This document shows, piece after piece, positions 8,432 through 58,186 of a stretch of DNA of 64,000 bases. Origin of the DNA: Yuukianura sp. NJ FZ-2021. Taxonomy: Eukaryota. Position numbers and translations under genes: made by a program. The notes beneath the pieces are model-generated. The model did not search any database. It was not told the DNA's origin and saw only the letters and a program-made list of their open reading frames with translations. The number at the start of each line of letters is the position of its first letter. Within the stretch, counting starts at the first letter, position 1. The stretch is taken from positions 186,001 to 250,000 of the forward strand of contig CM102283.1 in NCBI GenBank assembly GCA_046563655.1. Direction: 5' to 3'.

Positions 8432-9525
8432 GACCGCGCCTCGAATAATTTATACAGTGAGAATAGGAAAACTTCCAAACCACAAATGTCCCACTCTACC
8501 GAATGAGAATGAAATGAGCGATGATAACTCCTAAGGAAGTAGTTTGTAGTGGTTTTATTACATGCATTGTTCAAACTAGGGCGACCCAATTTCCCGTGGA
8601 TTGCTTGTATAGTTAAGCCTATTTTAACGAGGTTAGGTTAACCTAACCAATCTAAAATGAACGCTATAGCGTGAAGTACCCTAAATTGGAAATTCGCTAG
8701 ATTGATTAACAATTGAATGCCTTCGGCAAACTGGAAATCGTTGTTTTGACGTTTTCTTTTTCAATTTCTAAACAAACGAAATCACGCGAAAAAAAGGTTT
8801 TCCAGACCGATTTAGCGGTTTTTTCTGCCAGATTTCAGCAGAAAACTAATACGCAACTCGTTGCCCATAGAAACTCAAATTGCAATTTGCCGTTTGCTTC
8901 TTTTTCCGCGAAGCCATTCAATTTCCAAGTAGTTAAAATATAAAATAGGTCACATTTAGGCAATCAAAAAGAATTTCAATTGTCTATTAACTACCACACG
9001 ACTAAATTAGTCATGACAATTGCAAAAATTTTCTAAATTACGAGGATAGGTTGGCTTATGTCTTTTTATTTATTAGAGAAATTTAAATAAAATTTTTTTG
9101 GCAAAGACTTTCGCTTTCAAACGTAATCAAAATTTTATTCTCGAAATGAATGCGGCTAGGTTCAACACAAATTGAACTTGAGTCTGATTTTGCGTATATA
9201 AGGAAAAATGATTCTTGATTTTTCTTCTGGAGAAATAGAACATATAGATGAGAGGGGGTTTTTCCCTGTTAGTTTTGGTCAGAATCAAGCAATCTTACCA
9301 TTGATGAAATAAGATTCCAATTAACAATGTGAATTTCACATGCTGAATGAAAATTTTTAGTACAACTAAAGGTTCCCGCACACTGGACGGCGCCGACTGT
9401 CGGCGGCTGTCTGCTCTACTTTTTCTGTTCACTTTGCTATAGCACACCAGAAAAAGTAGCCGCCGAACTTTTTCTTCCCGTCGAAGAGGAAAGAAAAAGT
9501 TCGTCTCACTTTCATCTTTCTACAC

Positions 9526-15500: not shown

Positions 15501-15828
15501 AAAATGTAAGGACAGTCAACTGCTACCCGCTAGAATGACTGACTCCTTCGTTGTTCGTAGACTGTGCTACTGATTAATCGATTTATTCAACTGATTTTAC
15601 CAATTAACTCTTTTTTACACTTTCTTACTGGTCCTGTCTCTTGAATGTCTAAAATTCGACTCTCCTCTTCTTTTTCTTACTTTTTCTAACAAAAAAACCT
15701 AAAAATATAACCCAAAAACGCTATTTTAAATTTCCCTCTCCCATTCCCTCAAAATCTCAAATTCTAAAAAATACCAAAAGTCAAAACCTAAAATTTACAA
15801 AAAAATAACCTAATTTCAGATCCCAACA
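9526..15828 (-). mobile_element. Bel/Pao LTR retrotransposon, near full length with frameshifts
   Basis: 324-bp TG..CA LTRs at 9526-9849 and 15505-15828; PBS TGGTGACCC; PPT AAAAGGTGGGGAAAAA; internal gag-pol. Confidence 0.95.
9940..15276 (-). pseudogene. gag-pol: Bel/Pao gag-pol polyprotein split into 3 ORFs (12511-15276, 10432-12498, 9940-10407)
   Basis: DUF1759-like gag, Cys/His knuckles, protease LFDEGSQ, RT YVDN, RNase H FTDAS, integrase HHCC with VDLAGP/SDNGTNF/PWWGGFWER, C-terminal TRSGR. Confidence 0.92.
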
Positions 15829-17478: not shown

Positions 17479-19095
17479 CTTTGAAAAGGTTCTTTTCATA
17501 CGAACCGAAAAGGTTCCTTTCACTTTCTCCCCCTGCTGCTCCACTCTGTTTGAATTTTTTAGAAAAGTCTGAGATTTAGAGGTTCCATGTCATAACCGCC
17601 GAACCAAAAACCGCCGCTCCAAAAACCGCCGCTCAATAATCGCCGAAAAAATAACCGCCGCCAGGTAAAAATCGCCCTTATGCAAAAACAGCCGCCACGA
17701 AAAACCGCCGCTAGGAACACCTCACACTTTGTATTGCTCAATGTGGCAACATAGGTAGCCTTAGAAAATAGAACCTACAGACGTGATCAGTATTGTGGGT
17801 GTTACCAAACCTAACACCGCGCCTTCGGCAATAATCGCCGAAAAAATTACCGCCGCCAACCAAAAACCGCCGCTGTTCAGAAACCGCCGCCTTCCAGAAA
17901 GGGTTCAATACCAATTTTTTCAAAAGACCAGTTGGTGCAATGCCGATTAGTTTGAGACAAATTTGTTTGATTTTTAGGCGCGGTGTTAGGTTTGGTAACA
18001 CCCACAATACTCATCACGTCTGTAGGTTCTATTTTCTAAGGTGTGAGGGAGCATCACCCACACCACCCAACTTAGCAGATCCAGCGCCAGACGAGGAAGA
18101 CGGAGCGGAGGAGCAGCTTCACTCCTGGAGCAGACGGCGAGGAGAGAGGAGGACACAGGACACAGGATCATCATTTGTTTCACATTGGCGACCTGTGACA
18201 TTACGGAACCTCCAACTTCGGTCTGAAGTCCTTACTAAATCATCGAAACTACGCATCAGAAGGTCAGAGGTCAATCCCTACACCGATCTACGCAGATCTA
18301 CGCTACACTGAAGATCCAATTGTACATCTCAGCATCTTACATCGCTCATAAGGAAGGTATGTGAAATGTAGCATAAGTCAAGGGACGATGTGCATAACAA
18401 TGTCCCTCCAGTGTGTCAAAGGTCAAATTAGAGGTCACCTAAGCTAAAGACAGGAATCAGAGTTAGTGTAGACAGATAGCTATTGCATCAGAGCGTAGGA
18501 AGGACGTTGAAAGTCATTTGAAGGTTATCATATAAGTCATGTATAACGTAATATGAGTGTGTAGTGAAAAGATACGACAAATAACGTACCACAGCCGAGT
18601 CAATTAACAAAATTAGCATATTGAGAGGCAAACGAGTCAGAAATTCAAGGTTATCCTATAACTTACAGAGTTTCAGTCACAGTACGAGTCAGTTTCAAAG
18701 TTACAAAGTCAAGTCAAACGTAATACAAGGTTATTCACACTGAACTAGCAGAGTCACGGAATATAAGGTCAAATCAAGGTTACTTCGTGTTTGTAAGCAA
18801 ATCTACAGTTTCAGTTGAGTTATTAAGATACAGTTCAAGTTAAACCAAGGCTATTCGAAGTTATTCATGCAATCTAAAAACTTATGAGAGTTGTAAGACA
18901 AAATTAAAGTAAAACCAAGGTTACTCATGCAAAGTCAAGTTATTAAGTCACAGTTGTACATAAAGTAAAGAAGTCAAGGTAATACATGCAGAGTTGAATC
19001 TAAAGGTCAATTGAGTTTGTCAGATCGACCTTCAGAGTTCAAACTCACATTTTCTTACTAACGTCAAGGTTATAATTTTTGAAAAAAAAGTCAAA

Positions 19096-20610
19096 ATGAG
19101 TGATCACGAACAAGACACAGTTGATGATACTGAAAATGAAGAACCGAACGTACCACCGCATAGACCGCCTAGATCACATGTTAGCACTAGACAAGAAGGT
19201 CCAAATAACAGAGACAGAGTTCGAGAACGAGGTCAACGTACTGAAAATTCTAATGTAACACAAAATACTATGGCTCAAGCCAATCTAGGTACAAGTCGTA
19301 CTGCTCTAGCAGGCAGAGGAAGTACATACCCAGAACAAACAGGACCGCAAAACATACCGAAACGTGTTATTCGACAATTAGGTCTCGAACAAGAGGGTTT
19401 AGACACATGGTCAGATTTGAAAAAGTGGTTAGACAAAATTCCTAAAAAGAAAAGTGTCAGAGGCGACGTGAGTTCAGTCGACGCCTTAGATGAAGAAACA
19501 GATTCAGATGATTATGATGAAGAGAAAAGTAGCGATGAAGAAAGTGAAGTAGAGACAAGAAAGAAAAATCGAATGCCAAAGGTCAACTACGTTATTACGG
19601 GTATTAACCCGAATATACCGATACCAGTCTACGACTACAGAAAGCGAACAGCTGTTTCTTATTTACATGATGTAGAGTCGTACTTTCAGAGTCAAAATTA
19701 TACGAAAGACAAGTACTTGTACTTGATCCGAACAATTATGACAAAGGAGGACAAATCTTGGTTCGACAATGTCAGAGACGACATAAAAACTTGGTCAGAG
19801 TTTAAAAAAGCGTTTATAGCCAAATACGATTCAGTTGCAGAGAAAGAATTCAGAGCAAGGTTGTTATTAACCAGAAAACAGAAAGTTGCAGAGTCCGTAG
19901 AGTCATTCGTATGGGAAATGGTTACGTTAAGTCATCAGGTGAATCCTAAAGAAGAGACACATGTCATTGTACGCAGATGCAGAGACGCTCTGTATCCTAC
20001 AATTCGGACATTGATTGGTTATAGTGCTAGTTGGACGCCGACGGATTTAATTAATGAAGCGAAAAGAGTCATCTACGATTTGAGGTCAGAGGCTAAACGA
20101 ACGAAAACGTATATCCCAATTCCTCAGGTTAATACTATTCCAGTTGAGCAGAGTGAACTTAATTCAGCTTCAAAAACAGTTTCTAACACTACAGAGTCAC
20201 AAAATCATAGATTTCCAGAGAACATACATTTCAAAGGTAACCGTAATCGAGGAAATTACCATGGAAGTCAAGAAAGAGTTCAAAATTTTCGAAATTCTCA
20301 AAATTTTCAAAACAATGAAGGTCAACCAAGTGAAACGCGGAGTTATATGACATACCAAGGTCAAAGTTCTAGAGGCAGAGGTAATTCCTATGTGATCAGA
20401 CAAGGGAATAATACCCCAGAGTACTTGGCAGGGGATCACAATTTTTATTCTCAAAACAATAGAAGTAAGGATTACGACGAACGAGACTTTCAAAGTCAGA
20501 ACAGACATTTTACTCAACAGAAGAAGGAGTTAACCTGTTTTGTATGCCACCAGGTTGGTCATTTTGTTCGCGATTGTCCAAATGTAATACGCAGTCGCCA
20601 TGACGTATAA
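19096..20610 (+). CDS. gag: Gypsy-type Gag (504 aa)
   Basis: Retrotransposon-gag helical core (KSWFD..TWSEFKKAFIAKY..RKQKVAESVESF) and CCHC knuckle CFVCHQVGHFVRDC. Confidence 0.88.
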   Translation: MSDHEQDTVDDTENEEPNVPPHRPPRSHVSTRQEGPNNRDRVRERGQRTENSNVTQNTMAQANLGTSRTALAGRGSTYPEQTGPQNIPKRVIRQLGLEQEGLDTWSDLKKWLDKIPKKKSVRGDVSSVDALDEETDSDDYDEEKSSDEESEVETRKKNRMPKVNYVITGINPNIPIPVYDYRKRTAVSYLHDVESYFQSQNYTKDKYLYLIRTIMTKEDKSWFDNVRDDIKTWSEFKKAFIAKYDSVAEKEFRARLLLTRKQKVAESVESFVWEMVTLSHQVNPKEETHVIVRRCRDALYPTIRTLIGYSASWTPTDLINEAKRVIYDLRSEAKRTKTYIPIPQVNTIPVEQSELNSASKTVSNTTESQNHRFPENIHFKGNRNRGNYHGSQERVQNFRNSQNFQNNEGQPSETRSYMTYQGQSSRGRGNSYVIRQGNNTPEYLAGDHNFYSQNNRSKDYDERDFQSQNRHFTQQKKELTCFVCHQVGHFVRDCPNVIRSRHDV

Positions 20611-22339
20611 TCCTAGAGAAGAGAATTGTGAAGGTCAGAGACAAGAATTTTCGAATATCACAACTCACCAAAATAGTCAGAGACCAAAGTCAAGAAGAGT
20701 TTTCTCCAAATACAATGCCAATTTTTTCAAGTAGTAATTGTAAGAGGAACGACGTGTTCGACGATGTTCCTCCCCAAAACAAAAACAGCCAAGAAAATCA
20801 GTATTTAAATTATTAAGGGACAAAGTCCCACCATGTATCAATTTACTCCATAATTACTGCAGAGATTTAGTGTTTAAAATTTGGTATTCAAGAATTTAAA
20901 AAATTAAAAAAGACAATGTGCGCAGATGTCACATTACATAGTTTAGATTAGTCAAAAAGATTTATACCGCGACAGTTCAGATTATGGGATTTCCGCCGTG
21001 TTATTCCTGAAATTAAAAGGAAAAAACGAAGTTGTACATTTAACAGTTTACAGAGCAACAGTAACAGCTCTTAAGACAGATCAAAATTTAGTAGATGATG
21101 AAATAGAAATAAGGGATGCTCCCAAGGTTAGGTCGACGTGCTCGACGATGACCTGACACGTTGTCAAATTTCAAATGTATAGTTAGTGTAGATCAAATCA
21201 GAGAAGAGTAAAAGAACGATTAAGAAATTATTGAATTCAGAAAGAAATTATTAAAACCAAAATGGTTGAAAACAAGAAATCGAAAGAAACGAGCAATTGT
21301 CCTCGAACTAAAAGCAGAATTATGCTGTTAAAATGACGCAGTAGTCAGAATTGTTTATTTTACAAAAGCAGAGTTGCTAAGAAAAGAGATCTCCAAAAAT
21401 AATTCCAGTGATACGCCAGAACTCCAGAAAGTTAACGTATCTGTTAAGGAAAATACAGGCCTTACCCGGGAGCAACAGTCTAGCCCCGCGGAATATGAGC
21501 ACATTGCGCTGCCATTAAATGAATCAGAAAAAGTACGTACAGAAAATGAGAAAGTCGACTTAGGAAAACAAATAGGTTATAAGATAGAATTAAAATTTTT
21601 TGTACTAGGTATTACAATGATATGGAGAGAATTGATTTTGAGTTCAATCTAAAGTGTCATAAACAAATATACAGCAAATTATGCCAAAAAACTTCTAAGG
21701 TTCATTAGCAAGCAAGGTTTAATAACTTTCAAATAGACAGAGATGTTTCCAATAAAACAATCGACAACAAAAGATAAATTGGTTGACGAACTAAGTATTT
21801 GGCCAATACGGAAGTCTAAAACAAATTATTGCGAATCAAGGGGCTTAGGTCTCTTTGAACTTTAGTGTCAAACTGTTGTTCAGCATCTCAGAGTCAAAAT
21901 TACAAAAATACTTACAGAAGTTCATTGTATGCGTTCGAAACCATATGAGCAAGTTGCAAAAAGTATAATGACCCAGATTAGTTTAACAGTGTTCAACAAA
22001 AGCAGTCAGTATTGAGTCGACGCAGTGCTGTATTGTAATAAATTACGAACACGGAACCGAAAGTTACACAAACACGTTACCAATAGCAAAATAACCGAAA
22101 AAACAAGCGTTCTCAGATCAAAACCCCAGTTAATTATACAGCGTTATCAGGTTTAAGAATATAGATTAAGTTAGTACCCCGGGTTAGATTAAGTTAGACT
22201 AAAGTAGCATAAGTCAGAGTTAGTGAGATAATGTAAAAATGTATAATAATCCAGTTTACTTTAATTAATTTATGAAATACATCAAATTTCAAAAGCAAAC
22301 AGTTTAGAGATAAAAAAAAATTGCCGTTTATCATAGAGA

Positions 22340-23345
22340 AATGCACAAAATAAGTGAACGTCAAAAGACTGCGGACCAGTATAAGTATCCTATGTTGTTA
22401 AAACCGACGAAGAGTAGTCAATTTCAAAGGGGACATTGTGTTTGGACAGAGTTCCCCATTTCAAAAAAAAAATGCCAAGTGGAATTCGAAAAACGTATTT
22501 TTCAAAAATTATGGTTCCCGGAACTAGAGTTAAACATTGGATCAAAACAGAGTTTCATGTTGATTTAATTAGAGCATATTTGTTGTCTAAAATTTTCATC
22601 GATAGCGAACAATGTCGGTCCATTACTTGAATATTTACCAAAACGTGTATCAAAATAAAAAACTGTAACAGCTTGCCAGAGGGCGACAATGACCTTTTGT
22701 TACTCCAGCAAGATTTTAATCTTCGTTTATCCGGCCATTGACTTACAAGAATTCTACTTTAGAGTGTAAAAACTGTGTTACAAAACTTAAAGCCACTTGG
22801 ATTGGCTAAAAAGTGTAAATAGTTACTCAATATTGAGGTATTTGAGTTAGTTCAGAAGGAGGAGGTCGATGTGTTCGACAATGACCTCAGCAAGTAGTTT
22901 TGAGATGGAAACATAAATTAAAAATTTCCAATCTGGACAGAGTATCGAGCGAAATAACTCGATAAACCATTATTTCAAATCTTAAAAAGCGAAATTATAG
23001 CAGAAATTGCAAAAAATCACCAATTACAAATGAAGACTTACGAAAAATTACAAAATATACTCACAAATACGAAATGGATATTTTGAGAGTTATTTCAGAC
23101 ACAAACAGCCTAATCCTAACCGTCTACAAAGTCCCTCTTACGACAAAAATATCAACTACGACGACATGGAGACTTTTCCGCAGCCGACGACTACGAAGAA
23201 ATATTGGTTCTGTTTCTCTACTGGACACAATCACAAAGCATGCAAGAATCCGACAGCCAGTTACAAACATATCGTTGCAAACCCCGAGTAGAAACGGAAG
23301 TACAACCGCAAACACAAGTTATGGACCAGACGCAAACGAGGAGGA
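22340..23345 (+). pseudogene. Decayed RRP6-like exonuclease/zinc-knuckle extra ORF, homolog of 53500-55178
   Basis: Frameshifted fragments KYPMLLK, VPGTRVKHWIKTEFHVD..LLSKIFIDSE, GDNDLLLLQQDF..YPAIDLQEFY, LLNIEV, INYDD..FCFSTGHNHKACKNPTA align in order with the minus-strand ORF near 54 kb. Confidence 0.8.
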
Positions 23346-25507
23346 CTCATGCAGAAACCAGGACGACTCATGCAGAGACGAGGACGACCCCTTATTCCAG
23401 TCGGAGGACCCCCAGGAGGAGGTCAAGGGGCTCTTTCGAAGGAGAGTGTGAGGGAGCATCACCCCCACCACCCAAATCAGCAGATCCAGCGCCAGATGAG
23501 GAAGACGGAGCGGAGGAGCAGCTTCACTCCTGGAGCGGACGGCGAGGAGAGAGGAGGACACAGGACACAGGATCATCATTTGTTTCACAAAAGCTACCTA
23601 TGTTGCCACATTGAGCAATACAAAGTGTGAGGTGTTCCTATCGGCGATTATCGTGGCGGCTGTTTTTACCTGGCGGCGGTTTTTGCCTGGCGGCGGTAAT
23701 TTTTTCGGCGATTGTTGAGCGGCGGTTATTGGTTTGGCGATTATGGGTTGCTACGGATTTAGAAACCCCCTTGAGCAGAGAAGTTGTTAATCAGCGGATG
23801 CTGGTAGTGGACAGGACAGTGGACTGTGATGGATGAGGGCACAACAAGCTTTATTTTCAATTCAATGTTTCACTCGGATTAAGGATTTCAAAAAATCGAA
23901 AAGGATTTTGAAAAGTGTTTTAGACAGGAATTAGAAGGGTGCTGTGCGTTTGGCTATTGCAGATAACCGGCACTCACTGTTTGCTTTTTCCCTTGTGTCC
24001 ATGTAAGCTCAAAATTTCATCAAAATGAAAACTCTAATTTTGGTTTAACATTTTTTAATTTTGAAATTTAATAAGAAAGGGAAAAAATTTCCACTACTTT
24101 GCTCGCTCAATGAGATACGATCCACTTGGATTTCAAACTTTCGAAGGACAAAAATCTCCAAATCTTCCATCGCAACGAATAGACTTTCAAAATTGCTTTA
24201 AAAAATAAGTGAAAATTCAGAGAAAATATTGAGCGGACTTGTCAAAATTGGAAAATTTTTGTACTTTTTTGAAAAATAGAACTTTTGTTTCAAAATTTCA
24301 TGAAAAGTGAAAGTCCATTGGCACTCGGGTTACTTAATTTGGAAAGTTGTAAACTCTCTGGTCATTTCCTTCTGTTTTCTTCTTCCTTATTATTATGCTC
24401 ACCAGTTTTTGGTAGAAGGAAAAGCCTTGTTTAATTTGTTTCCAGAAGTTAGAGTAAAAGTGGCCATTAAATTAAATGGAAAATACTCTCATTCAATTGC
24501 ACAAAAACAACAATTGGAACTTTCTCTTTCTAGTCGGGGTATCATGAATAAGGCGAGAGCGGAAATAGTTACTTCCTCCAAAGAGAGCAAATAGTTAATC
24601 CCTCCAAATGTTATTATTGCTCAGGATTTGGAGCAGGCTGAGGAAAACGACTGGTGGAAGAAGCTTAAGGAATCAAATGGAGACTCGTTTGCAGAAAAAC
24701 CGAATCATATTTCTTTTTTCAACTAATTACACACGTTTTTTTGATCTTGGAGAAACTTGTTCAACTTTCTTTTGAAACTCCTTAACTTTTTCGGTTTTTT
24801 AAAAAAAGTAGGCGCAGAACAGAATGGAAATGACTTTTAATGTGCACATTCCCACTTGGTCTGTGATGTTTCCTTGGAGAGGGGCTGATTTATGGGCCAG
24901 AAGAACCACGGTGGTTTCCTTTCACTTTCTTAAAATTCCCGCTTAGGTTAGAATCAAGGAAAAGGCGGGTGGAGGGAGTAACCAAACCAAACCAGAGAAA
25001 GTTTAATTAAATCTGCGTAGATGCAAAGTTATGCTGGAGAAAGTCAGAGATTCCCATGTTACCCCGAAAATAGATCTGATTTCAGTCGTGCCAAAAATAC
25101 AAATTATAGTGTGTCTCTTTTTAGAAGGCACTTTTCAAATCTGAAAATAATTCCGTTCACCTTTGCTAACACCTTAGTTAACATAGAAATTCTCAATTTT
25201 GTGAAATTTTGTGTATAAACTATATGGAGAAAATGTGTTTTTTTTTTGAAAAACCGATTTTTTTATAAACGTCGCAATGGAAGAGAGAAAACGACCAAAC
25301 CAAAAAATGCCTTCTAAAAAGCGACAAACTATGGACACAACCTCGATCTAAATATTGTTTTATCTCATAACTTGTGTGTTTCCAAAATTTTGAAGTAGTT
25401 GTATTTTTCGTATGTTGATTATTGATAAGTTGATTGGATGTGACGGTTCTCTTGGACCGAAATAATATATTGAGTGGTTGTATCAGAACACAGTGAAATC
25501 TTCTGAA

Positions 25508-28067: not shown

Positions 28068-28550
28068 ATTAGGTCAAAGTTCAGGAATTCCTTTTTTACG
28101 ATTTATTGTTTCGCATTACGTCACTAAGAGTTGGGGCAACGTGAGAATTGAGGATCAGAAATGGCTCACCCACTTTGCCTGACCGTTTTAGAAAAACCGC
28201 GAATGATTCTCAAATTTTAACTTTAACGCAGTGATTCGCGAGTTAGCATGAGTTGTGCAAAATTTCAATCGTAATTAATCCACCCGTTCGGGGTTTTCAT
28301 GATTACGTAGTGTGTAAATTTTCAATTCTCAGTTGTTACCATGTCTACAAAACGTTCTTGGGCGTTATTTTTATTGACCTCCTGTCTCTCCTTAATTTTG
28401 AATCGGCGTAAATCACCACGACATCGGCAAGTGTTTGTATGTTTGTATGAAAGATACAGCTATTCACTGCAAATGATTTGAGTGAAAACGAACAACTATG
28501 CCGACGTCTGCAGTAAAACAGAAACAAATTTTGCAGTTGTTAACGGCAAC

Positions 28551-31500
28551 TGTTGGATAATTGAGTGTTTTCATTTTTTGTGTTTTCAAGATTAGTTTTT
28601 AGAAATGTTTAGTTTTAGGAAGTGAGAATGTTGAGCGCGTTTTCTCTTTCCGATTTCCTAAATTTCAAATAGGCTTTACGCCTGCTCTCAGAGTTTCTCA
28701 CCTCGAGGTGTTAGGTTTTTAGAATAAGAACAAGTTGTAACAAGATTGTAAGTACAAGAAAGAATCTGTAAGTTTTGGTAATTAATCGGTTGATTAATTA
28801 AAGTATATTCAAATTAACTACAGTTTGGTAGTTTTGCGTCGTCCTGTCAGTCATTCGTCAGTAGTCAGTTGCTCCGGCCAGTTAATTTGTAGGAACTCAG
28901 AAAGCGACAGTTGACGGTTAGTTTTCTGGTCGACTTTCTAACATTTTGGTGACCCTTGGCCTCAAATTTACTGGAGTGGTGGAGCAGTAACCTGAGGGAG
29001 AGTTCCAGAGATCGTTCTTGGACACCTTTGGACACTACAGGAGCAAGTTGGAGTATCGTCCGGGTGTGGAGCCGATACTGTCACAATCGAATACGTAGTG
29101 GTCTGTGCCTACCGGAACGGCACTTCCTGAGGTGACGATCGTTCAGATCAACCAGTTTAAATCAAATTCTGATATTTGGTTTTTCTTTTGTTTACCTTTT
29201 TGAGCTATGGATAGAGCTAAACGGGAAAGAGCTGCTGAGAGGAGTGACGTACTGGAAATAGTCAAGTCACTCGAAGATGAATTGCAGAGAGATCCAGTTA
29301 ACACAGATGAGATCGTGACGTCACTACAGTTACTGGATGCTTCTCTACAATCATTGTCCGAACTCGATGAGATGATTAAGGAGTTCATTTTGGATATGGA
29401 AGATGTTGATGGGGGCGTCCTTTCCTCAGAACGGACGGAAAGTCGGGAGTTTCGCAAGAAGGCAACTTTAGTCAAAGTGAAGGCAGAAACGAAACTTCAG
29501 AATCTGTGGAAAAGTCAACGCCCAGTCAGTCCAACAAGAAGCGAGTCATCCAACGCCTACAGTCGTCGTGTCAAACTGCCGAAGATCGATTTGATGAAAT
29601 TCAACGGAGATTTGACGGACTGGTTGGGTTGGTGGGCCCAATTTAAGAAAATTGATGAAGATGAGGAGCTCCACGATTCAGACAAATTCAGTTACCTGGT
29701 GCAGTCCATGGTGTTGGACTCACGGGCAGAAGAAGTTGTCAAGCGATATCCCCAGCCTTCTGAAAATTACCCGAAAGCCCTTGCTGCACTGAAGGAACGA
29801 TTCGGCAAGGAGAATTTGCTCAAGCAAGTGTACGTCCGTGAGCTGATTAAGTTGACTTTGGATAATCGCTCAAAGGAGAAGAGGCCGCTCGCTACACTTT
29901 TTGACAAGTTGGAAGCATCACTTTGTTCCTTGGAGTCCCTTGGTGTCAACATGGAGCAAATGGTGGAATTATTGTTTCCAATGGTGGAATCCAGTCTGCC
30001 GGAAGATGTTCTTCTTGCCTGGCAGCGCAGTCCGAATTTTGGGAAGGACGGATCACGTGAAAATCCTCCAAAATCGGAACTGGATTTTCTTATGTCTTTT
30101 CTGAAGATTGAGATCGAGAATGAGGAGCAGCGGAAGTTAGCCCGGTCTGGAGTCGGCCTCATCCCAGAGAAACAAAAATTTCAGAATCGACCACAACATG
30201 CAGATGAAGATGTTCCAACTTCAGCTGGAATTTTTCGTGGAACAAGTGGAGGTGGGAAGGCGGGAAAAGTCTCCTGCATTTTTTGTGAGAAGCCACACGA
30301 CTCCAACAATTGTTTCAAGGCCCAGAAAATGAAGTTGGAAGAGAAGAAAGAAGTTGTTTCCAAGAAGAGAGCATGTTTTTCATGTCTTAAAGTTGGTCAT
30401 GTCGTCTCAAAGTGCCCCATTCGTGTTAAGTGTTTACTTTGTGGGAAGAGACATGCTATTCTTTTGTGTCCTGGTGCAGAAGTGAAACCGAAAGTGGCTA
30501 CGGAAGAGCAGACAGTTCTCAGCAGTTTGAACTGTACTAGTGAAGTGCTCCTTCGTACACTAATTGTTCGACTTGAAAATCCAGTGACACACCAAACAAG
30601 AAACGTGAGGATGATTTTGGATTGTGGTTCCCAAAAATCCTACATCCTGAAGAAGACTGCAGAGGCCCTGAATTTGGATGTGAAGGAGACTTTGACCATG
30701 AACCACTTGCTGCTTGGTGGAAATGAAGTCGTGGGAAATCGACATTCAATTTTCGAAGTGAACATTGGTAGTCCCCTCAGCAAGTTTTCGTCTTTGTTTA
30801 CACTCATGGACCAAGAATATATCTGTGGCGAGGTTCCGAGGATTCCGGATGGTCCATGGATTCAGCAGTTTAAGAAGAGAGGAGTGAGACTCAGTGACGT
30901 GGATCCGAAAAACCCGATGGAAGTTGAAGTACTACTTGGTGCGGACGTCATGGGAAGAATCTTGGCTGGAAGGATCCAACGGTTGGCCAGTGGTTTCACT
31001 GCAACCGAAACGAAGTTCGGATGCTCAGTTTTCGGTCCAATGTGCGGTACCAAATTGGACACTGTGGCCATGACTGTCATGTCAATGACTATTTCTAGTT
31101 TTTCAGTGTCACAGTTGTGGAACTTGGACACAATTGGAATTCTGGACCCTGTGGAAGTGAAATCAAAAGAAGAGAAGGAGAGAGAAGCCATTGACCATTT
31201 CCAACGTACCGTCAAGCAGAATCCGGATGGTCGGTACTCTATTTCTCTGCCATGGCCAAATGGAATTCAGTCTTTGCCCTCCAATCGTTTAGTTGCCCAG
31301 AAGAGATTGGAGAGTACAACGAGAAAGTTGGTGACACTTGGACGTTTTGCTAATTATGTTTTTAGTGAAAGTTAACAAAGTTTTTAGTGACTGGGAGGAG
31401 GAAGGCATAATTTTCGTTGTGAAAAGTGAGAGTGAGACTGCTAGTTGTCATTTTCTTCCTCACAGAGCCGTGTTCAAGTCCAGTGTCACAACTCTCGTGC

Positions 31501-34500: not shown

Positions 34501-35073
34501 AGTTAAAGTTTAGTTTAATTTGTTTGGTTAAGTTTTTGTTTTCAATTTGAGTTTAGAGTTAAGTTTAAATTTTAGATATTTAACTTTCTCTATTTACTTT
34601 TCCAATAACCTAATTAGTTAGTTAACGTTTCTTCGGTAATTGTTTACCTCAGAAAGTGGGGAGAAATGTTGGATGATTGAGTGTTTTCATTTTTTGTGTT
34701 TTCAAGATTAGTTTTTGGAAATGTTTAGTTTTAGGAAGTGAGAATTTTGAGCGCGTTTTCTCTTTCTGGTTTTCTAAATTTAAAATAGGCTTTACGCCTG
34801 CGCTCAGAGTTTCTCACCTCGAGGTGTGAGGTTTTTAGAATAAGAACAAGTTGTAACAAGATTGTAAGTACAAGAAAGAATCTGTAAGTTTTGGTAATTA
34901 ATCGGTTGACTAATTAAAGTATATTCATTACAAGTAAAGTATATTAACTACAGTTTGGTAGTTTTGCGTCGTCCTGTCAATCATTCGTCAGTAGTCAGTT
35001 GCTCCGGCCAGTTAATTTGTAGGAACTCAGAAAGCGACAGTTGACGGTTAGTTTTCTGGTCGACTTTCTAACA
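28551..35073 (+). mobile_element. Bel/Pao LTR retrotransposon, full length
   Basis: LTRs at 28551-28943 and 34667-35073 (TG..CA); perfect 5-bp TSD GCAAC; PBS TGGTGACCC; PPT AGAAAGTGGGGAGAAA. Confidence 0.96.
29207..34464 (+). pseudogene. gag-pol: Bel/Pao gag-pol: frameshift ~31360 from a short duplication, stop at 32394, frameshift ~34230
   Basis: gag, ILDCGSQ protease, YVDN RT, FGDAS RNase H, integrase IDLGGP/TDNGTNF/PWWGGWWER. Confidence 0.92.
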
Positions 35074-45577: not shown

Positions 45578-45602
45578 TGTAACATAACGATTTAGAACTT
45601 GT

Positions 45603-45675: not shown

Positions 45676-45707
45676 AGCTTGGAAATTAACGTTTTATTTC
45701 ATTGAAT

Positions 45708-46661: not shown

Positions 46662-46694
46662 AGCAATATTTAATCAGTCAGAAAGCAGTCAGAC

Positions 46695-52402: not shown

Positions 52403-53499
52403 AGTCACAGAAATTCGCAACTTAAGGTTTATAGGTCATAAATTGACACCTTAAATTACATTGTTTGTGCCACGAGGTACTAAACTGCAAAAAAACATAA
52501 TAAATCCGGAAGACTAAACTAAATTGGTGACAAAAAGGAAAACATTCTAAAAACAAACAAAATGTGAAGGCCGTTAGGCATCAATTTACTTTATTCTTTT
52601 TCTAAACCTGTAAGGCAGCGATTATAAAACAATGTAATAAAAATTGATTGGGAAATGACTTCTAAAACTTTAGTTAAGTGCTAATGTGTGCAAGGAGGGA
52701 TAGAAGAAGGCTAATCGTGATTCCTGTTCATCCGTGAATTTAACTAACATGAGACAAACGAGTTAACGCGTGGTGGAGAGCCGTTGTACACAAAAAGAAA
52801 ATAACAAAATGTTTATTAACTTCTAGGCTCCGTCGATTTTTAATTAAGATGTGAGTGTGATTCTTCCAATTCAATGCCACTAGGTATTGCCAAATCTCCT
52901 TTTGGCAACTCGAATTCAACTTTACCTATAAAATGTTTCGCAGCATAAACTTTTGTTCAAGATGATATTTGAGATACTGTGGTACTTTTCAAGGTTCTCA
53001 GCTCAAAAGTGACACAGATTCTACATTCCTATCGACATATTGATACACTAAATTGTTATGCGTAACTTAGCCCGAGGCGTAAAATGCTAAAGCTGTTTTT
53101 GTAAAATGTAAGGGTCAACAAGTTCAACGGGCCACTTCGAATAAGTGCCCTACCCTGATGACCGCTTTTTGACGGGGCGTGGTCACTTGGCGCTGAAAGG
53201 CCAATTGTATTTGTAGGTATTGAAAGTTTGACCCTTAAGGGGTCCGTAGATTGTAGAGTTGACCCCTGGTCAACTCCAGAAATGATCTGGAAAAGAGGAC
53301 TGATCGCGAGTAGGACTGGAAACAGACTGATCTTTATTCTCTGAATAAAGATCTGAATCAAAAAATAAGAAATAAAACTAAAGCTAAACTGTGCTGTGCG
53401 GTGTGGTCTGTCCTCCTCGTGGCTCTCTCCTCTCCTCCTCCTCCTCCTTGGACGGTGGCGAATACTGCGCCGTCACATTCACCACGACGAGAGCCCCCT

Positions 53500-55178
53500 C
53501 TACTGGCGAAGCGTCGTCTTGCGTCTGTGTCGGTTACGATGGTGGGAAAGCCGTCTACGTCGATTCTCTTGCTGTCGTCTTTGGAGGGTGGAATTGATGA
53601 ATCCCTTCCTGGCAGTCGGGTTCGGACAAGTACTGTGCTCGTGTGAAGTGTCGTGACAAAGGTAGCATCTTCTGGTGCTGATTGGTGCATCGGGAAGTGG
53701 AATTTCTGGAAATATGTCCGGCTCATCATCATAGTTCACATGGATTTCAATGTCTGGTTCTGTAGCTTGCATGTCAACATCAGGAGCTTGAATCGGCGAA
53801 ATGATTTTTGGTTCTGGTACAATATGGTGTAAATTGGGAGTTGGTTCATCAGCTTCAGATTCCGTTTCTGGTTCTGATTCAGGAGTTCGTTTCTGGTTCA
53901 CGACCACGATTTTACTTCTGATTTGGACATTCAAGTCAGACCAACTATCTTCGCTATCGTCGTCGGTGCTGACGTATGATGGTGCTCTGGTTAGTGGTGC
54001 TGGAATGTTGGCGATTACATGGTAAACTTGAGCGATGGCGTCACAGATTTGATTTTGAATTTCAAGTGAACATTTGTAAATCTTAACTACGTCTTTTGGA
54101 CATGAAGGAGCCACTATGGCTAAAGTTCTCATTTGATCGAATGTCATAATCCAATGTACTTGTTTGTCTAGAATTTTTGCCTGATTAAGTGCCCATTGGT
54201 ACAATTTGCTAAAAATACACTTCTGAATTTGATTGAGTGCTTGTGCTTGCTTGCCTAAAACAATTTCTACCGTTGTTTTGTCACACGCACGGTACATTTT
54301 TAAAGATTTCTCCATAGATACTAGGAAAATTGGTAATTTTGCTTCTAACTTATGTACAAAGTCTAGTTGAAGGTCGCTGCCACTCGCTGCGTCCTTCCTT
54401 TTCTTAACACATTGATTCCAGATTAATATCAAACTATAACTATCATACCAAGCATATCTGAACAAATCCTGTGGTAAACGACTGAGCTTATCTCTCACTG
54501 TCCAATCTGCTGCTTGAGCATCCTTTGACACCTCTACATCAAGTAAATATTTACACATCGTGGAAAGTGAAGTAGCTTCAAATCTAGCGTCTACACCGAA
54601 AAATAACATATGATACAATTCTTGTAAGTCTATTATAGGGAAAATGAATATGTCAAAGTCACGCTGCGTCTCATGAGTTAATCATTGTCGCTGCCAACTA
54701 GAATTTTGCCAATATTCGTACAACAAAAGATTTTTGGGAGATTCTCCTTAAGCCAATTACAAATCGGGGGAACATCTATCACAAAATCATGATCCTCTAC
54801 TGAAATTTGAATAATAGTAATGAAATCTTTGTAACACTTAGTCTGATGAAACTCCACATCTACAAAAAGTAACTGTTTCTGAAGTAAAAACTCTAACATC
54901 TGATCTGCATGATAACTAGTCTTAATCCAGTGATGAGTTCTAAAATCTGGTACTTCTAATTCTCTAAATAATGACAAATCTGGGTTCCAATTACGAATTT
55001 GATTCTCAAAGGGGTGTACTCTTGGAATTTTAGGCTCTATAGCAAAATTTACATTCTGTCTCATCTTTAAGAATTCGGGATACAAATCTTACGGTCTAGC
55101 TTCTACGGACTTCCATTTCAATTTAGCTTCTTTCTGTGCTAGTTTCCATTTCTGAGCCTGTCTCTGCTTGCTATTCAT
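53500..55178 (-). pseudogene. Retrotransposon-borne RRP6/EXOSC10-like DEDDy 3'-5' exoribonuclease + HRDC + CCHC knuckle (one stop at 55091, one frameshift at ~54670)
   Basis: ExoI FVDVEFH..IIQIS..DFVID; ExoII GSDND..QRDF..ID; ExoIII Q.ADW.VR..LP.....YAWYD; HRDC-like IFSKLYQW....AKILD; CYLCHDTSHEHSTC. Confidence 0.88.
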
Positions 55179-55399
55179 TTTGAGGGTACAGTCGCTGCCT
55201 GAATCGCTGCGTCTGTACTGTAAATAACCAAAAATACTAAAATTAGTCTAAATCAGAATCTTAACTAATTTCAACCTAGCCTAAGTTATTTTCAACTTAA
55301 CCTAGTAATTTCAATTTAACCTAAAATGATTTCCTTAACCTAAGGCGCCAACTAACTAAATTCTTAATCTAGCTTAACTAAGAGCTCTTCTAACCTAAC

Positions 55400-57030
55400 T
55401 TATGTCCTAAATCCTGCTAATTGCCTGTAGTTTACTGGTTTTCTGTCTCTGAGCTGTCGTTTTTCTGGTTCTTCTGGCATTTCTTCTGGAATTTTGATTC
55501 GAACTGTCTCGGTATCTCTTGGAAAATATGGTTTTAAGTCACTGACGTGTCTAACTCCTGCTAACTCTCTTTCTGGATAAGTACAAATTTGAAATGTAAC
55601 TGGAGTGACTTGTTTGACAATAACATAAGGTCCTATCCGCTTTGGAGCTAATTTTTGAGCTATACCTTCGTCTTTGTTAGATTGTACTCTGTTTCTAGTC
55701 AAAACAAACTGATTTTCATCAAACGAAACTTCTCTACGATGTTGATCATAGTATTTCTTGTATGTAGCTTGAGCTTTGTCAATATTCGTTCTGACCCAAC
55801 TAATTAGATTCTTTAAGTACTGATTTAATTCAATTGCATGAGACTCTGGTAACTCGAAATTTTCCTTTTCTGGTTCTGAAATTTGTCTGTCGAACGGCAA
55901 ACTAATCTCACGACCTAAGTTTAACATTGCTGGTGTTACTTTAGTACTTTCGTTACAGACTGTTCTTAACGCAAGTGCGAATTTTTGGATATGTAAATCC
56001 CAACTCGAATGTTGACCGTCTACAAATGCACAAATCATTGCTTTAATGTTTCTATTTATCCTTTATGCTAAATTTGGCTGGGGATGGTACACTGCGATGA
56101 ATCTATGGTCGATATTCCAAGCTTTACAACATTTTTTCATTAAATTAGACAAAAATTGAGATCCGTTGTCTGTGATTATCGTTTTTGGACTTCCGTACCT
56201 GCAGAATACGTGATCCTCTAAACAATCTACAATCTTTTTAGCCGTTGCTTCTCGTAACGGAAACATTTCTGTCCACTTTGACAATTGGTCGACTAGAACT
56301 AACAAATACTCATTTCGTCTGCCTCCTGCAGTAACCGGAAGTGGACCAATTAAATCTGCGTAAATGACTGAGAAAACCTCTTTCGCTGCTCTAATAATTC
56401 CCATAGTCCCTGCGGGTTTTAAGTTATCATATTTGACTTCCTGACAAACTTTGCATGTTTTAACGTAATTTGCTATATCTTTGTTCATGTCTGGCCAATA
56501 CACTCTGCTTTGAACTCTGAATTTTGTTTTTCTGACCCCTGGATGACCTGAATGAGGTTCATCATGTAACTCTTTTAGAACCAAATTTCTGAGACTTTTA
56601 GGCACAACAGGTAAGTACAACTTAACTCTATCCTTAACACTATTCTTATCTCTATTCTTAACACTAATCTTAACACTAACGCTAGCTTCGTCTTCGTCTG
56701 TACGTACTTTCTTTTCGGAACGAGGAGCATCTTCGCATCCCACATTGTTCCTTACGAACGGAGAGCTCTTCGGCATCCCACATTGTTCTTTTAGACGCTC
56801 TTGGTTCTTAGGGCTATCTACCCTTTCTGCTCTACCAGGCACTGCCGCTGGGAGTCTACCTAGGCCTTTCTCTTCGGTATTCTGTACAAAACAACTTTCG
56901 TTTGTAGAACCGATCTGTGGATCAACTCTGTCCACTTGTGGGGTCATGCTACCCACTTTGCGCGTCCGCAAACTTCTATTTTTCTTTGTGTGCACTATCC
57001 TAAACAGGATTCCATCTTTTATAACATAAT
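55400..57030 (-). pseudogene. pol: Gypsy integrase (HHCC, DDE core, GPY/F), broken near 56060
   Basis: LHDEPHSGHPG..YWP..CKVC, ADLIGPLP, TDNGSQF, YHPQPN, KLAPKRIGPY. Confidence 0.92.
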
Positions 57031-58186
57031 TTTCTAAATTGCATGATTTTTTTAACCCTTTTTGTTACTTTATTATTCTAGTAACTTTATTAAAATAAAA
57101 ACTTACGATTTCATATTGTTCTAGAGCCCAGTTTTGAATTGGGCGGACATCAAACCCAGTTCCCATACTTCGGAAGAAACTGTTTTGTTTCTAATAAAAA
57201 ATTAAATAGTTATTCTGTTGCAAGAAAATGAACGAGACCAACACCCAGGTAGTACATATGTACGTGGTACGTATGTGCTACTTGGGTGCAAAGCTTGCAG
57301 ATTTTTTTACAAAACCCTGCGCAAACTCTGACACCTTATTGCAACCATACTCATAATCTTCGACAGCCAACTTAAACCTAACCTAATAAAAACTTATTGT
57401 GTTACACTTACAGGTGTTCTTCCAAATTGTTTAGTTTGGATTCCTCCTCCATTCAGTACTGACTTCCGGCTCTTTGCTTTCTAAACAAAATAACAAACAA
57501 ATTTTGAGATGAAAGCGTAAAAAAAATAACAGCAATATCAAAACATAGTAACAACCAATGTTAGGTTAAGTCAGGTTACACTTACAGGAGTCCCACCAAC
57601 TTGTTTAGTATTGCATCCTCTTCCTTCCTGTACTGAGTTCTGGCCTTTGTTGTTCTAAGCAAAACGACAAACAAATATTAAAATGAAATCGTAACAAAAA
57701 ATAACACCAAATTAAAAAATACTAACAAAAACATCAAAAATAAGATCCTCAACCTTATGTTGTACATGTGAAATTGTGTAAACATTAAATAAAAATTTGA
57801 ACTGTAATAAAAATGTTATTGGTACCTTGTGGTTTTGTAGTTTGTTTTGTAGTTTCAATGCTTGCCATTTTTTCCCCATTTTTAAACTAAACGTATTAAA
57901 GCTTCTGCAAAATTTATTAACTTTCTTCTTAAAATTCTTTCTCAGCAACTGGGGAGGGTAGGGTATACGATTTAGTATTAGTTGGTTATTGTCGTCGAAT
58001 GGCTTATAGCATTTTTTGTCATCTTGTACTAACGAACGGATGACAATAAACCAAAAGTGTGCAAGCAACTTTTTTTGCAAGTTGAAGTTATATCCTTTGG
58101 TTCAGAGAACCGAAAAGGCGTCGTGTCAGTTCAACACAAAGACAATCAGACTTGGATGGGAAATTGACAGACTGCATTTTTTGCCA

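What the first reader, a model, noticed from the sequence alone, without database searches (positions are those of the whole stretch)
22340..23345. A second, highly diverged Gypsy element has the same nuclease-knuckle ORF, so the cargo is a lineage feature
Seen: fragments before the 3' LTR of the 18-23.6 kb element match the 54-kb ORF in the same order. KYPMLLK vs LYPEFLK; VPGTRVKHWIKTEFHVD..LLSKIFIDSE vs VPDFRTHHWIKTSYHAD..LLQKQLLFVDVE; GDNDLLLLQQDF..YPAIDLQEFY vs SDND..TQRDF..FPIIDLQELY; INYDD..FCFSTGHNHKACKNPTA vs VNYDD..LCHDTSHEHSTCPNPTA. The two elements have different LTRs (143 vs 424 bp), and the similarity is far clearer in translation than in DNA. Inference: the capture is old and was kept under selection in at least two families.
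Basis: partly seen in the sequence, partly recalled or inferred. Interest (0 to 1): 0.82.

Follow-up and report, generated by a model that had tools for sequence, protein, structure and literature searches.

The report
Decayed Rrp6-like nuclease gene in retrotransposon
A dead remnant of an exosome-type (Rrp6/EXOSC10-like) RNA exonuclease gene sits just before the end of a second retrovirus-like transposon in this window, matching the better preserved copy in another element, which shows the nuclease is transposon cargo of a kind already described in rotifers.

Summary
The two reading-frame pieces of the 53.5-55.2 kb ORF (- strand) hit 22493-22609 and 23133-23339 (+ strand) at E 1.3e-6 and 1.7e-6 against the whole window. 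A third collinear block lies at 22719-22760. 0 of 300 shuffles reach these scores.

The ORF is an Rrp6/EXOSC10-like DEDD-Y 3'-5' exonuclease with an HRDC-like region, one CCHC knuckle and a basic tail. It lies 3' of a Ty3/Gypsy integrase and ends just before a putative 3' LTR.

The 22.3-23.4 kb stretch is a badly decayed homologue: frame breaks, stops, and about 680 bp shorter. It occupies the same slot, right before the polypurine tract and 3' LTR of a 5.5-kb element. That element has 143-bp LTRs, a Gypsy-type gag and only faint pol traces.

Both window copies are dead. Contigs of public runs show the 54-kb family is multi-copy, with integrase and nuclease linked.

DEDDy-exonuclease ORF3s in LTR retrotransposons were published for bdelloid rotifers in 2017, so this is another case of a known kind. 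It adds an EXOSC10-type core and a knuckle.

"Lineage feature" is plausible. Vertical descent cannot be separated from ORF exchange here. The 424-bp LTR could not be verified.

The parts
18042..18184 (+). Element 1: 5' LTR, 143 bp, TG..CA
   Evidence: Direct repeat. Boundaries read. 138 of 143 identical to the 3' LTR.
18186..18197 (+). Element 1: primer-binding-site-like TGGCGACC..., one base after the LTR
   Evidence: Read. Identified as a PBS by inspection only; tRNA not identified.
19096..20610 (+). Element 1: gag ORF (open; Retrotrans_gag and CCHC knuckle)
   Evidence: Pfam PF03732 at E 5.4e-6 and zf-CCHC at 1.6e-4. Weak blastp matches to the gag parts of Gypsy polyproteins P0074 and P0081.
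20871..22012 (+). Element 1: faint, collinear traces of pol (RNase H to integrase); no recognisable domain
   Evidence: A profile of 17 Gypsy pols gives four + strand hits in profile order 471-490, 497-522, 628-702 and 854-889, with E 0.55-13 each. Pfam on 10 fragments found nothing relevant. tblastn with pols found nothing.
22341..23345 (+). Element 1: decayed remnant of the exonuclease-knuckle ORF3 (the finding). It starts at an ATG at 22341. Blocks lie at 22380-22403, 22451-22609 (pre-EXO and ExoI), 22655-22760 (ExoII) and 23133-23339 (knuckle and basic tail). It has at least two frame changes and in-frame stops, and is about 680 bp shorter than the element 2 ORF (1005 against 1679 bp). Basic-tail-like coding may run on towards 23440.
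23438..23446 (+). Element 1: polypurine-tract-like GAAGGAGAG abutting the 3' LTR
   Evidence: Read; by inspection.
23447..23589 (+). Element 1: 3' LTR, 143 bp
55400..57061 (-). Element 2: integrase end of a Ty3/Gypsy pol (H2C2, rve, SH3_Tf2-1), with one in-frame stop at 56063-56065. The copy is cut off 5' at 57061/57062, with no RT, gag or 5' LTR.
   Evidence: Pfam. Best relatives are Gypsy polyproteins, up to 52% identity, which match the window only at 55427-57040. Contigs of other copies run on unlike past 57061 (tables 7 and 8).
55179..55399 (-). Element 2: 221-nt spacer between the integrase stop and the ORF3 ATG. It is TTAG(G)-rich and ends in a pyrimidine tract plus CAG (splice-acceptor-like) about 40 nt before the ATG.
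   Evidence: Read. The splice site is inference only.
53500..55178 (-). Element 2: ORF3, an Rrp6/EXOSC10-like exonuclease (ExoI DVE, ExoII ..DND, ExoIII YAWYD) with an HRDC-like region, an acidic linker, CX2CX4HX4C and a basic tail. This copy is broken by an in-frame stop at 55089-55091 and a frame break near 54680.
53107..53477 (-). Element 2: putative 3' LTR (about 371 bp, TG..CA), preceded by the purine run AGAGGGGG at 53494-53501. The outer end at 53107 is supported. The inner end is inferred.
   Evidence: Read. Contigs with differing flanks end at 53107, and depth is highest in the 53085-53518 bins (tables 2 and 7). There is no partner LTR in the window.

Best explanation
The stretch 22341-23345 is the dead remnant of a third gene (ORF3) of an LTR retrotransposon. 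The same gene is better preserved, though also broken, at 55178-53500 (- strand), behind the integrase of a 5'-truncated Ty3/Gypsy element.

**What the gene encodes.** It encodes the catalytic core of the nuclear-exosome exonuclease Rrp6/EXOSC10: a pre-EXO linker, a DEDD-Y EXO domain and an HRDC-like region. It lacks the N-terminal PMC2NT domain. It adds an acidic linker, one retroviral-type CCHC zinc knuckle and an arginine/lysine-rich tail. This much is shown.

**How it most likely works (inferred).** ORF3 is expressed from the element, perhaps from a spliced subgenomic RNA as env genes are. The knuckle and basic tail bring the protein to RNA or into the gag/RNA particle. The enzyme is active and trims or degrades RNA 3' ends to the element's benefit. 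Two candidate tasks are processing the element's own RNA or primer, and removing host RNAs that restrain it (surveillance or small-RNA pathways). I hold these two as about equally likely and cannot separate them here.

**State of element 1.** It is an old copy (LTRs 96.5% identical) that has lost nearly all of pol and about 680 bp of the ORF3 stretch.
For: **Homology and collinearity:**

**Same slot in both elements**
- In element 1 the remnant ends about 100 nt before the purine tract and 3' LTR.
- In element 2 the ORF starts 221 nt after the integrase stop and ends at a purine run, 22 nt before a TG that opens the putative LTR.

**Cargo of a repeat family**
- 101 to 247 contigs per run, at 85-100% likeness, lie on 52000-58500 in 4 of 4 DNA runs (2 samples, 2 studies).
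- Contigs bridge the integrase-ORF3 spacer in X1, X2 and X4, which are one sample.
- Contigs end with unlike flanks at 53107 and run on past 57061.
- Two of the window copy's three lesions are not shared by the contigs.

**Identity of the domain**
- PF01612 scores above its cut-off on both pieces (31.3 and 25.1 bits against 23.6).
- The ORF piece's only solved-structure matches are EXOSC10/Rrp6 (6 of 6; best E 8.5e-7).
- The family profile scores E 5e-62 to Rrp6, against 5e-27 for RNase D and 1.6e-18 for Mut-7.
- The model of the intact relative P0003 (mean pLDDT 72, EXO region above 90) superposes on Rrp6 catalytic cores over 333-392 columns.
- D, E, D, Y and D of the three Exo motifs are present.

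**Knuckle**
- The CX2CX4HX4C spacing is read.
- Query residues 333-357 match 26 knuckle repeats of P0001.
- P0003 has the same C-terminal layout.

**Protein-level constraint:** codon-position identities are 74, 74 and 46 of 122.

**Precedent:** DEDDy ORF3s in bdelloid Juno and Vesta LTR retrotransposons (PMC5408684, passages read).
Against: - Both window copies are broken, so nothing here shows a working gene in this genome.
- Element 1 has no provable pol, and element 2 has no LTR pair, gag or RT. Neither is a complete Gypsy element with the ORF inside.
- The contigs that bridge integrase and ORF3 come from one sample, which may be the sample the window was assembled from.
- The two related loci fetched from metagenomes give no retroelement context. 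L001 is only 1082 nt. L002 has no pol traces upstream.
- No pol-exonuclease fused protein was found (weak evidence).
- HRDC in the window's ORF is below Pfam's cut-off (16.3 against 23.8 bits).
- Pfam did not call zf-CCHC in the window's ORF.
- The remnant in element 1 matches no Pfam family, and its knuckle lacks the first cysteine.
- The function is entirely inferred.
Confidence: 0.7

Rival explanations
1. The ORF is retroelement cargo but not a vertically inherited lineage feature. It was passed between unrelated LTR-element families by template switching or recombination, or captured more than once, so the two elements need not be related.
For: - The bdelloid study reports independent acquisition of DEDDy ORF3 by Juno and Vesta, and sharing with Penelope-like Athena elements (PMC5408684).
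- The two window elements share no DNA similarity.
- Their backbones cannot be compared: gag is present only in element 1 and integrase only in element 2.
Against: - Nothing in the window argues against it directly.
- The shared N-terminal, knuckle and tail layout shows only one origin of the ORF, not of the elements.
- The ORF-to-LTR junctions look alike by eye (23 of 34 bases), but this is not significant.
Confidence: 0.3
2. The nuclease is a catalytically active counter-defence factor. As a free Rrp6 core without the exosome-docking parts, it destroys host small RNAs or competes with nuclear RNA surveillance of the element's transcripts.
For: - PMC2NT is absent and the catalytic residues are kept.
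- The ORF's family is split from canonical EXOSC10-like proteins by a branch with SH-aLRT 100 (30 rows against 31; quick tree).
- Related DEDD nucleases (Mut-7/Nibbler, EXD1) act in small-RNA pathways. This rests on the names, the discussion in PMC5408684 and the abstract of PMC4712191 seen in the listing.
Against: There are no expression, small-RNA or biochemical data, and no RNA run was listed. It is equally compatible with a role in the element's own RNA or primer processing.
Confidence: 0.3
3. The two stretches are decayed copies of a host gene (an EXOSC10 paralogue or its processed pseudogene) that lie next to LTRs by accident in a transposon-rich region.
For: - The window is a transposon graveyard: BEL/Pao, Polinton-like and Harbinger pieces.
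- Springtail gene models of the wider family are annotated simply as HRDC domain-containing proteins.
Against: - The same orientation and the same position against the purine tract and LTR occur in two unrelated elements.
- The knuckle and basic tail are absent from EXOSC10.
- High-depth contigs link integrase and ORF.
- The family is multi-copy, with near-identical paralogues in one springtail genome.
Confidence: 0.04
4. The similarity is chance or compositional.
For: Each block is short. Four of the supporting profile hits are individually non-significant.
Against: - Two blocks score E of about 1e-6 against the whole window.
- 0 of 300 shuffles reach the observed scores.
- The blocks are collinear.
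- An unrelated database protein gives an independent hit.
Confidence: 0.01

Closest known systems
DEDDy (RNase D-like) exonuclease ORF3 of bdelloid rotifer LTR retrotransposons Juno and Vesta, also found in Athena/Terminon elements (Rodriguez et al. 2017, PMC5408684; abstract and 11 passages read; supplements not seen)
   Same: An extra ORF downstream of pol in LTR retrotransposons encodes a DnaQ-like 3'-5' exonuclease. It is found in more than one element lineage, and its function is unknown.
   Different: - Here the core is EXOSC10/Rrp6-type with an HRDC-like region, the canonical DEDD-Y residues, a CX2CX4HX4C knuckle and a basic tail.
- The paper's main text has no occurrence of HRDC, zinc knuckle or CCHC. 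It reports DEDD changed to DEED and a Cys-His-Cys motif in Vesta2 and Vesta5.
- Sequence relatedness to the bdelloid ORFs was not tested, because their sequences were not on hand.
- The host of this window is not known to me.
Rrp6 / EXOSC10, the distributive 3'-5' exoribonuclease of the nuclear RNA exosome
   Same: It shares the pre-EXO linker, the DEDD-Y EXO domain and the HRDC. It is the best sequence and fold match.
   Different: - There is no PMC2NT domain and no long C-terminal exosome-binding region.
- A knuckle and basic tail are added.
- The length is about 560 aa, against 700-900.
- It is separated from canonical sequences by a branch with SH-aLRT 100.
Short Rrp6-like 'HRDC domain-containing proteins' of about 470-600 aa, from the springtail Orchesella dallaii and from metagenome or transcriptome assemblies (P0004, P0005, P0011, P0020-P0024, P0032, P0046, P0056 and others)
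   Same: - They share the N-terminal motif, EXO, HRDC, acidic linker and basic tail.
- P0022 is the best full-length tblastn match to the window's ORF (E 7e-32).
- They are multi-copy in one genome: 7 sequences with 11 accessions listed in four paralogous clusters, one sequence under three accessions on one contig.
   Different: Most have no knuckle. Their genomic context (transposon or host gene) could not be examined.
env-type ORF3 of errantiviruses and other env-carrying Ty3/Gypsy elements
   Same: It occupies the position between pol and the 3' LTR. Expression from a spliced RNA is possible (inference).
   Different: It is an enzyme, not a membrane fusion protein. I did not test for a signal peptide or transmembrane segment.
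Trypanosoma brucei RNase D (PDB 7c42-7c4c, deposited as 'CCHC-type domain-containing protein')
   Same: A DEDD exoribonuclease combined with a CCHC element (names).
   Different: It is a distant match (profile E 9e-11). It is a cellular enzyme, not mobile-element cargo.

Membership tests
DEDD-Y 3'-5' exonuclease (Pfam PF01612, RNase D/Rrp6 type): element 2 ORF | Pfam model above its gathering score | tested here: met
   31.3 bits (profile 2-87) and 25.1 bits (profile 92-167) on the two frame pieces. The cut-off is 23.6.
DEDD-Y 3'-5' exonuclease: element 2 ORF | Catalytic residues of ExoI (DxE), ExoII (D) and ExoIII (Yx3D) | tested here: met
   DVE..SDND and YAWYD lie in the family columns of alignment A1. 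Which residues are catalytic is recalled from the Rrp6/RNase D literature.
DEDD-Y 3'-5' exonuclease: element 1 remnant (the finding) | Pfam model and three Exo motifs | tested here: not met
   No PF01612 or other relevant Pfam hit on the fragments; only chance-level matches, E 0.075-0.09. ExoI-like DSE and ExoII-like GDNDLLLLQQDF are readable. The ExoIII region is gone. It is a relic of a member, not a member in working order.
Rrp6/EXOSC10 orthologues | N-terminal PMC2NT domain (Rrp47 binding) | tested here: not met
   The ORF starts only about 90 aa before EXO. There is no PF08066 in the window's pieces or in P0003, whereas canonical hit P0009 has it weakly (21.0 bits, below its 23.3 cut-off).
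Rrp6/EXOSC10 orthologues | EXO followed by an HRDC domain | tested here: inconclusive
   - Window ORF: HRDC at E 0.0094, 16.3 bits, below the 23.8 cut-off.
- phmmer aligns residues 6-205 to EXOSC10 198-377.
- The family profile matches the isolated EXOSC10 HRDC chain 2cpr at E 2e-5.
- The P0003 model superposes on EXO+HRDC cores.
Rrp6/EXOSC10 orthologues | Groups with canonical sequences in a tree | tested here: not met
   In a quick IQ-TREE of 61 rows, 30 rows including the window are split from 31 canonical-type rows by a branch with SH-aLRT 100. Long branches are flagged.
Exonuclease ORF3 of LTR retrotransposons (as in bdelloid Juno/Vesta) | Separate ORF between pol and the 3' LTR of an LTR retrotransposon | tested here: met
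   - Element 2: 221 nt after the integrase stop, ending at a purine run before the putative LTR.
- Element 1: between faint pol traces and the purine tract and 3' LTR.
- Contigs link integrase and ORF.
Exonuclease ORF3 of LTR retrotransposons (as in bdelloid Juno/Vesta) | Sequence kinship with the published Juno/Vesta/Athena ORFs | not tested
The paper's supplements are closed.
Ty3/Gypsy LTR retrotransposon: element 1 | LTRs with TG..CA, PBS, PPT and target-site duplication | tested here: inconclusive
   LTRs are met. PBS-like and PPT-like motifs were found by inspection. The flanks AAGG and AAAG agree in 3 of 4 bases only.
Ty3/Gypsy LTR retrotransposon: element 1 | gag plus pol with RT-RNase H-integrase order | tested here: inconclusive
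   gag is met (PF03732 and zf-CCHC). For pol there are only four collinear hits at E 0.55-13, and none by Pfam or tblastn.
Ty3/Gypsy LTR retrotransposon: element 2 | Gypsy-type integrase (H2C2, rve, SH3_Tf2-1) with Gypsy polyproteins as nearest relatives | tested here: met
   Of 17 hits, 15 carry RVT_1, RT_RNaseH and rve, and the other two lack one of the three. RT, gag and the 5' LTR are missing from this copy.
Retroviral-type CCHC zinc knuckle | CX2CX4HX4C | tested here: inconclusive
   - Element 2: the spacing is exact by inspection, and residues 333-357 match 26 knuckle repeats of P0001. Pfam zf-CCHC was not reported at E up to 0.1.
- P0003: 19.8 bits against the 20.8 cut-off.
- Element 1 remnant: the first Cys is absent.

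The most novel reading that the evidence does not exclude
A whole, fast-evolving family of short Rrp6/EXOSC10-like proteins is a pool of retroelement-borne, catalytically active exoribonucleases. This is the 30 of 61 rows on the window's side of the tree, including the many springtail 'HRDC domain-containing proteins'. Ty3/Gypsy elements of soil invertebrates would carry them as ORF3, in one branch fused to a nucleocapsid-type knuckle. They would use them to blunt the host's nuclear RNA surveillance or small-RNA silencing. That would be a transposon turning the exosome's own nuclease against the host.
Probability: 0.2. Interest if true: 0.65.

Novelty: new variant of a known kind. Interest (0 to 1): 0.4.

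Why it matters
- **More cases of an unexplained gene class.** Accessory genes of retrotransposons are rare and mostly unexplained. The published exonuclease ORF3s come from bdelloid rotifers. These two cases have a clearly EXOSC10-type core, an HRDC-like region and a nucleocapsid-like knuckle. The host of this window is not known to me.
- **A concrete hypothesis to test.** The layout suggests an RNA-directed enzyme delivered to the element's RNA or particle.
- **Annotation.** Multi-copy 'HRDC domain-containing' or 'ribonuclease D' gene models in invertebrate genomes and soil metagenomes may be transposon cargo rather than host exosome genes.
- **Limits.** The finding itself, a dead second copy, adds modest weight. 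It shows the ORF belongs to LTR elements, not to the locus.

Tried and rejected
- **No whole genome held.** No genome-wide census was possible.
- **Earlier notes of this scan.** Nothing found.
- **Word-based protein search with the 393-aa piece.** No hit. The full HMMER search was needed.
- **Fused pol-exonuclease proteins.** None among the 62 phmmer hits. None in the 'longer' search with alignment A1. The tool itself calls this weak evidence.
- **Metagenome contigs.** Only 2 loci. L001 is a 1082-nt decayed copy in three frames. L002 is a lone fragment with no pol traces upstream. So no outside context was gained.
- **Viral contigs with the ORF alignment and with pol P0069.** Nothing found.
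- **Pfam on three long read-through frames of 20.6-22.3 kb.** I used stop-to-stop fragments instead.
- **tblastx hits 22099-22230 to 56715-56584 and 20413-20529 to 62888-62772.** Judged spurious. The first lies in a lysine-rich stretch and is out of order with other weak integrase hits.
- **DNA likeness of the two ORF-to-LTR junctions.** 23 of 34 bases by eye. A local alignment chose another purine-rich stretch, and 6 of 500 shuffles reached its score. Not significant.
- **Sequencing runs.** No RNA holder listed, so nothing can be said on expression.
- **Parts of 52000-58500 without listed contigs.** I draw nothing from them.
- **Literature.** Five searches found no paper on an Rrp6/EXOSC10- or HRDC-type ORF in LTR retrotransposons other than PMC5408684 and citations of it (PMC6338049; PMC5718144 seen in the listing only). 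Subscription journals and supplements were not searchable.
No second copy in the window. My estimate of about 371 bp rests on one supported end and one inferred end.
Full report
**1. The observation**

The window is eukaryotic and full of transposons. I read it with the standard code.

The ORF near 54 kb lies on the - strand in two frame pieces, 54678-55088 (136 aa) and 53500-54681 (393 aa). I kept the pieces separate throughout.

tblastn of both against the whole window finds, apart from themselves, three collinear + strand blocks:
- 22493-22609 (41% of 41 aa, E 1.3e-6)
- 22719-22760 (64% of 14 aa, E 0.42)
- 23133-23339 (32% of 76 aa, E 1.7e-6)

Nothing else in the window scores better than E 0.1. 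None of 300 shuffles of 22300-23450 reaches the observed scores.

Two checks do not use the window's own ORF. Database protein P0006 hits 22655-22723 at E 8e-4, the only one of 68 proteins tried that hits the stretch. A profile of 21 database relatives puts its three best non-self hits, and four of its best five, among 3200 six-frame fragments into 22631-23448 in profile order. Each of those hits alone is weak (E 0.13-4.3).

At DNA level the two elements are unrelated (best blastn E 0.016).

**2. Anatomy of element 1 (18042-23589, + strand)**

- LTRs: 143 bp, TG..CA, 138 of 143 identical.
- A TGGCGACC primer-binding-like motif lies one base after the 5' LTR.
- The gag ORF is open, with Retrotrans_gag and a CCHC knuckle (19096-20610).
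- Then come 1.7 kb in which neither Pfam nor tblastn with 17 Gypsy polyproteins sees anything.
- A profile of those 17 pols gives four weak + strand hits at 20871-22012, in the order RNase H to integrase (E 0.55-13). I read these as traces of a largely deleted pol, not as proof.
- From the ATG at 22341 the ORF3 remnant follows. It changes frame at least twice, has in-frame stops, lacks the ExoIII and HRDC parts, and at 1005 bp is about 680 bp shorter than the element 2 ORF of 1679 bp.
- Its knuckle has lost the first cysteine.
- It runs up to the purine tract GAAGGAGAG and the 3' LTR.
- The flanking tetranucleotides AAGG and AAAG agree in 3 of 4 bases.

**3. Anatomy of element 2 (57061-53107, - strand)**

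Only the integrase end of pol is present (H2C2, rve, SH3_Tf2-1). It has one in-frame stop.

Its nearest relatives are Ty3/Gypsy polyproteins, up to 52% identity. Of the 17 hits, 15 carry RVT_1, RT_RNaseH and rve, and the other two lack one of the three.

After a 221-nt TTAG-rich spacer that ends in a splice-acceptor-like tract, ORF3 starts at 55178. This copy has an in-frame stop at 55089-55091 and a frame break near 54680. It ends at 53500, next to a purine run.

No second LTR exists in the window.

**4. What public runs add**

Four DNA runs were laid, all kept as contigs. X1, X2 and X4 are one sample. X3 is another organism code and another study. The best holder may be the window's own source.

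- They lay 101-247 short contigs each on 52000-58500, at all likeness classes from under 90 to over 99%. This is a repeat family.
- Contigs bridge the integrase-ORF3 spacer in X1, X2 and X4.
- Contigs of X1, X3 and X4 run on with unlike sequence beyond 57061, so the window's copy is 5'-truncated there.
- Contigs of X1 and X2 with differing flanks end at 53107, which is a CA, so the element ends there.
- With a TG at 53477 after the purine run, the LTR would be about 371 bp. The inner end is inferred.
- At the integrase stop and next to the ORF3 frame break, the contigs differ from the window's copy. Those lesions look private to this copy.
- Run X3 holds pieces of both integrase and ORF3, but no listed piece joins them.

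**5. What the ORF encodes**

- PF01612 scores above its cut-off on both pieces. HRDC scores below its cut-off.
- The language-model atlas points to exonuclease/HRDC clusters at lead level only (0.79).
- Full HMMER against 1.84 billion representatives gives 62 hits. P0003 (545 aa) is intact and has the same layout from N-terminus to knuckle and basic tail.
- All 6 solved-structure matches of the window's piece are EXOSC10/Rrp6. P0003 gives the same picture.
- The family profile scores 5e-62 on Rrp6, covering the pre-EXO linker, EXO and HRDC. It scores 5e-27 on RNase D and 1.6e-18 on Mut-7.
- An AlphaFold model of P0003 (mean pLDDT 72; linker 399-473 disordered) superposes on Rrp6 catalytic cores over 333-392 columns.
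- The D, E, D, Y and D of the Exo motifs are kept in the window's ORF, P0003 and P0002.
- PMC2NT is absent.

**6. Where the family sits**

I built a quick tree of 61 rows: the window piece plus 60 of the 62 hits. I left out the two knuckle-only hits, P0001 and P0060.

A branch with SH-aLRT 100 splits 30 rows, including the window, from 31 canonical EXOSC10-type rows. The window groups with P0002, P0003 and P0006 (SH-aLRT 90). Long branches are flagged, so details are unsure.

Named members of the short family all come from one springtail, Orchesella dallaii. There they occur as several paralogous clusters, some with near-identical copies, and one sequence appears under three accessions on one contig. 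That pattern fits mobile cargo, but their context could not be examined.

**7. Selection**

In the 122 aligned codons of the three blocks, positions 1, 2 and 3 are identical in 74, 74 and 46 cases. This fits divergence under protein constraint before both copies died. The blocks were picked by protein similarity, which inflates the contrast.

**8. What is known**

Rodriguez et al. 2017 (PMC5408684; abstract and passages read) describe RNase D-like DEDDy ORF3s in the bdelloid LTR retrotransposons Juno and Vesta. They report at least two acquisitions, sharing with Athena elements, and unknown function. A 2019 opinion paper lists the DnaQ-like exonuclease among known accessory domains (PMC6338049, passage read).

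So the kind is known. What differs here is the EXOSC10-type core with an HRDC-like region, the intact DEDD-Y set, and the CX2CX4HX4C knuckle with basic tail. Whether the bdelloid ORFs are kin was not tested.

**9. Mechanism**

Shown:
- an Rrp6-type catalytic core with intact motifs;
- no exosome-docking N-terminus;
- a nucleic-acid-binding C-terminus;
- the ORF3 position;
- multi-copy linkage to integrase.

Inferred:
- The protein is an active 3'-5' exoribonuclease brought to RNA or to the particle by the knuckle and tail.
- It serves either the element's own RNA or primer processing, or the removal of host RNAs that restrain the element.
- It may be expressed from a spliced RNA.

**10. Verdict**

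Vertical inheritance, present-day selection and the Gypsy nature of element 1 are not established, and the phenomenon is not new in kind.

Noticed in passing
window 44465-52441: Polinton/Maverick-like gene cluster. It holds an rve integrase (45708-46673, - strand), an adenovirus IVa2-like packaging ATPase (46674-47351, + strand) and several ORFs without a Pfam family (49551-50390, 51312-52076). It is interrupted at 48770-49441 (- strand) by what looks, from recall of the motif QQDGAPAH, like a mariner-type transposase fragment.
   Followed up: partly
window 9521-15669 (- strand) and 28548-35073 (+ strand): Two BEL/Pao-type LTR elements with LTR pairs (170 nt at 98%; about 400 nt at 94-99%) and long gag-pol ORFs. 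Neither has any exonuclease ORF.
   Followed up: partly
window 17591-17762 versus 23590-23749, and 17759-18041: The flanks of element 1 are inverted repeats of each other (102 nt at 83% and 60 nt at 95% complementary). A 283-bp unit with 66-nt terminal inverted repeats (98%) abuts the 5' LTR. Element 1 seems to have landed in the centre of a palindromic or foldback repeat.
   Followed up: no
window 55179-55399 (- strand): The spacer between integrase and ORF3 is built of TTAG/TTAGG-like words and ends in a pyrimidine tract plus CAG about 40 nt before the ATG. This could be a splice acceptor for a subgenomic ORF3 message.
   Followed up: no
window 58187-58978 (- strand) and 62739-63717 (- strand): A BEL/Pao gag fragment (DUF1759, E 1e-27) and PIF/Harbinger transposase fragments (DDE_Tnp_4) lie upstream of the truncation point of element 2. 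Run X3 shows extreme depth at 58076-58500.
   Followed up: no
window 59660-60877: Tandem array with units of about 62 and 123 nt, and a 488-nt higher-order duplication at 99%.
   Followed up: no
L001 1-1082: A metagenome contig holds a copy 45% identical to the window's ORF3, spread over three frames. Decayed copies of this subfamily therefore also occur in an environmental sample.
   Followed up: partly
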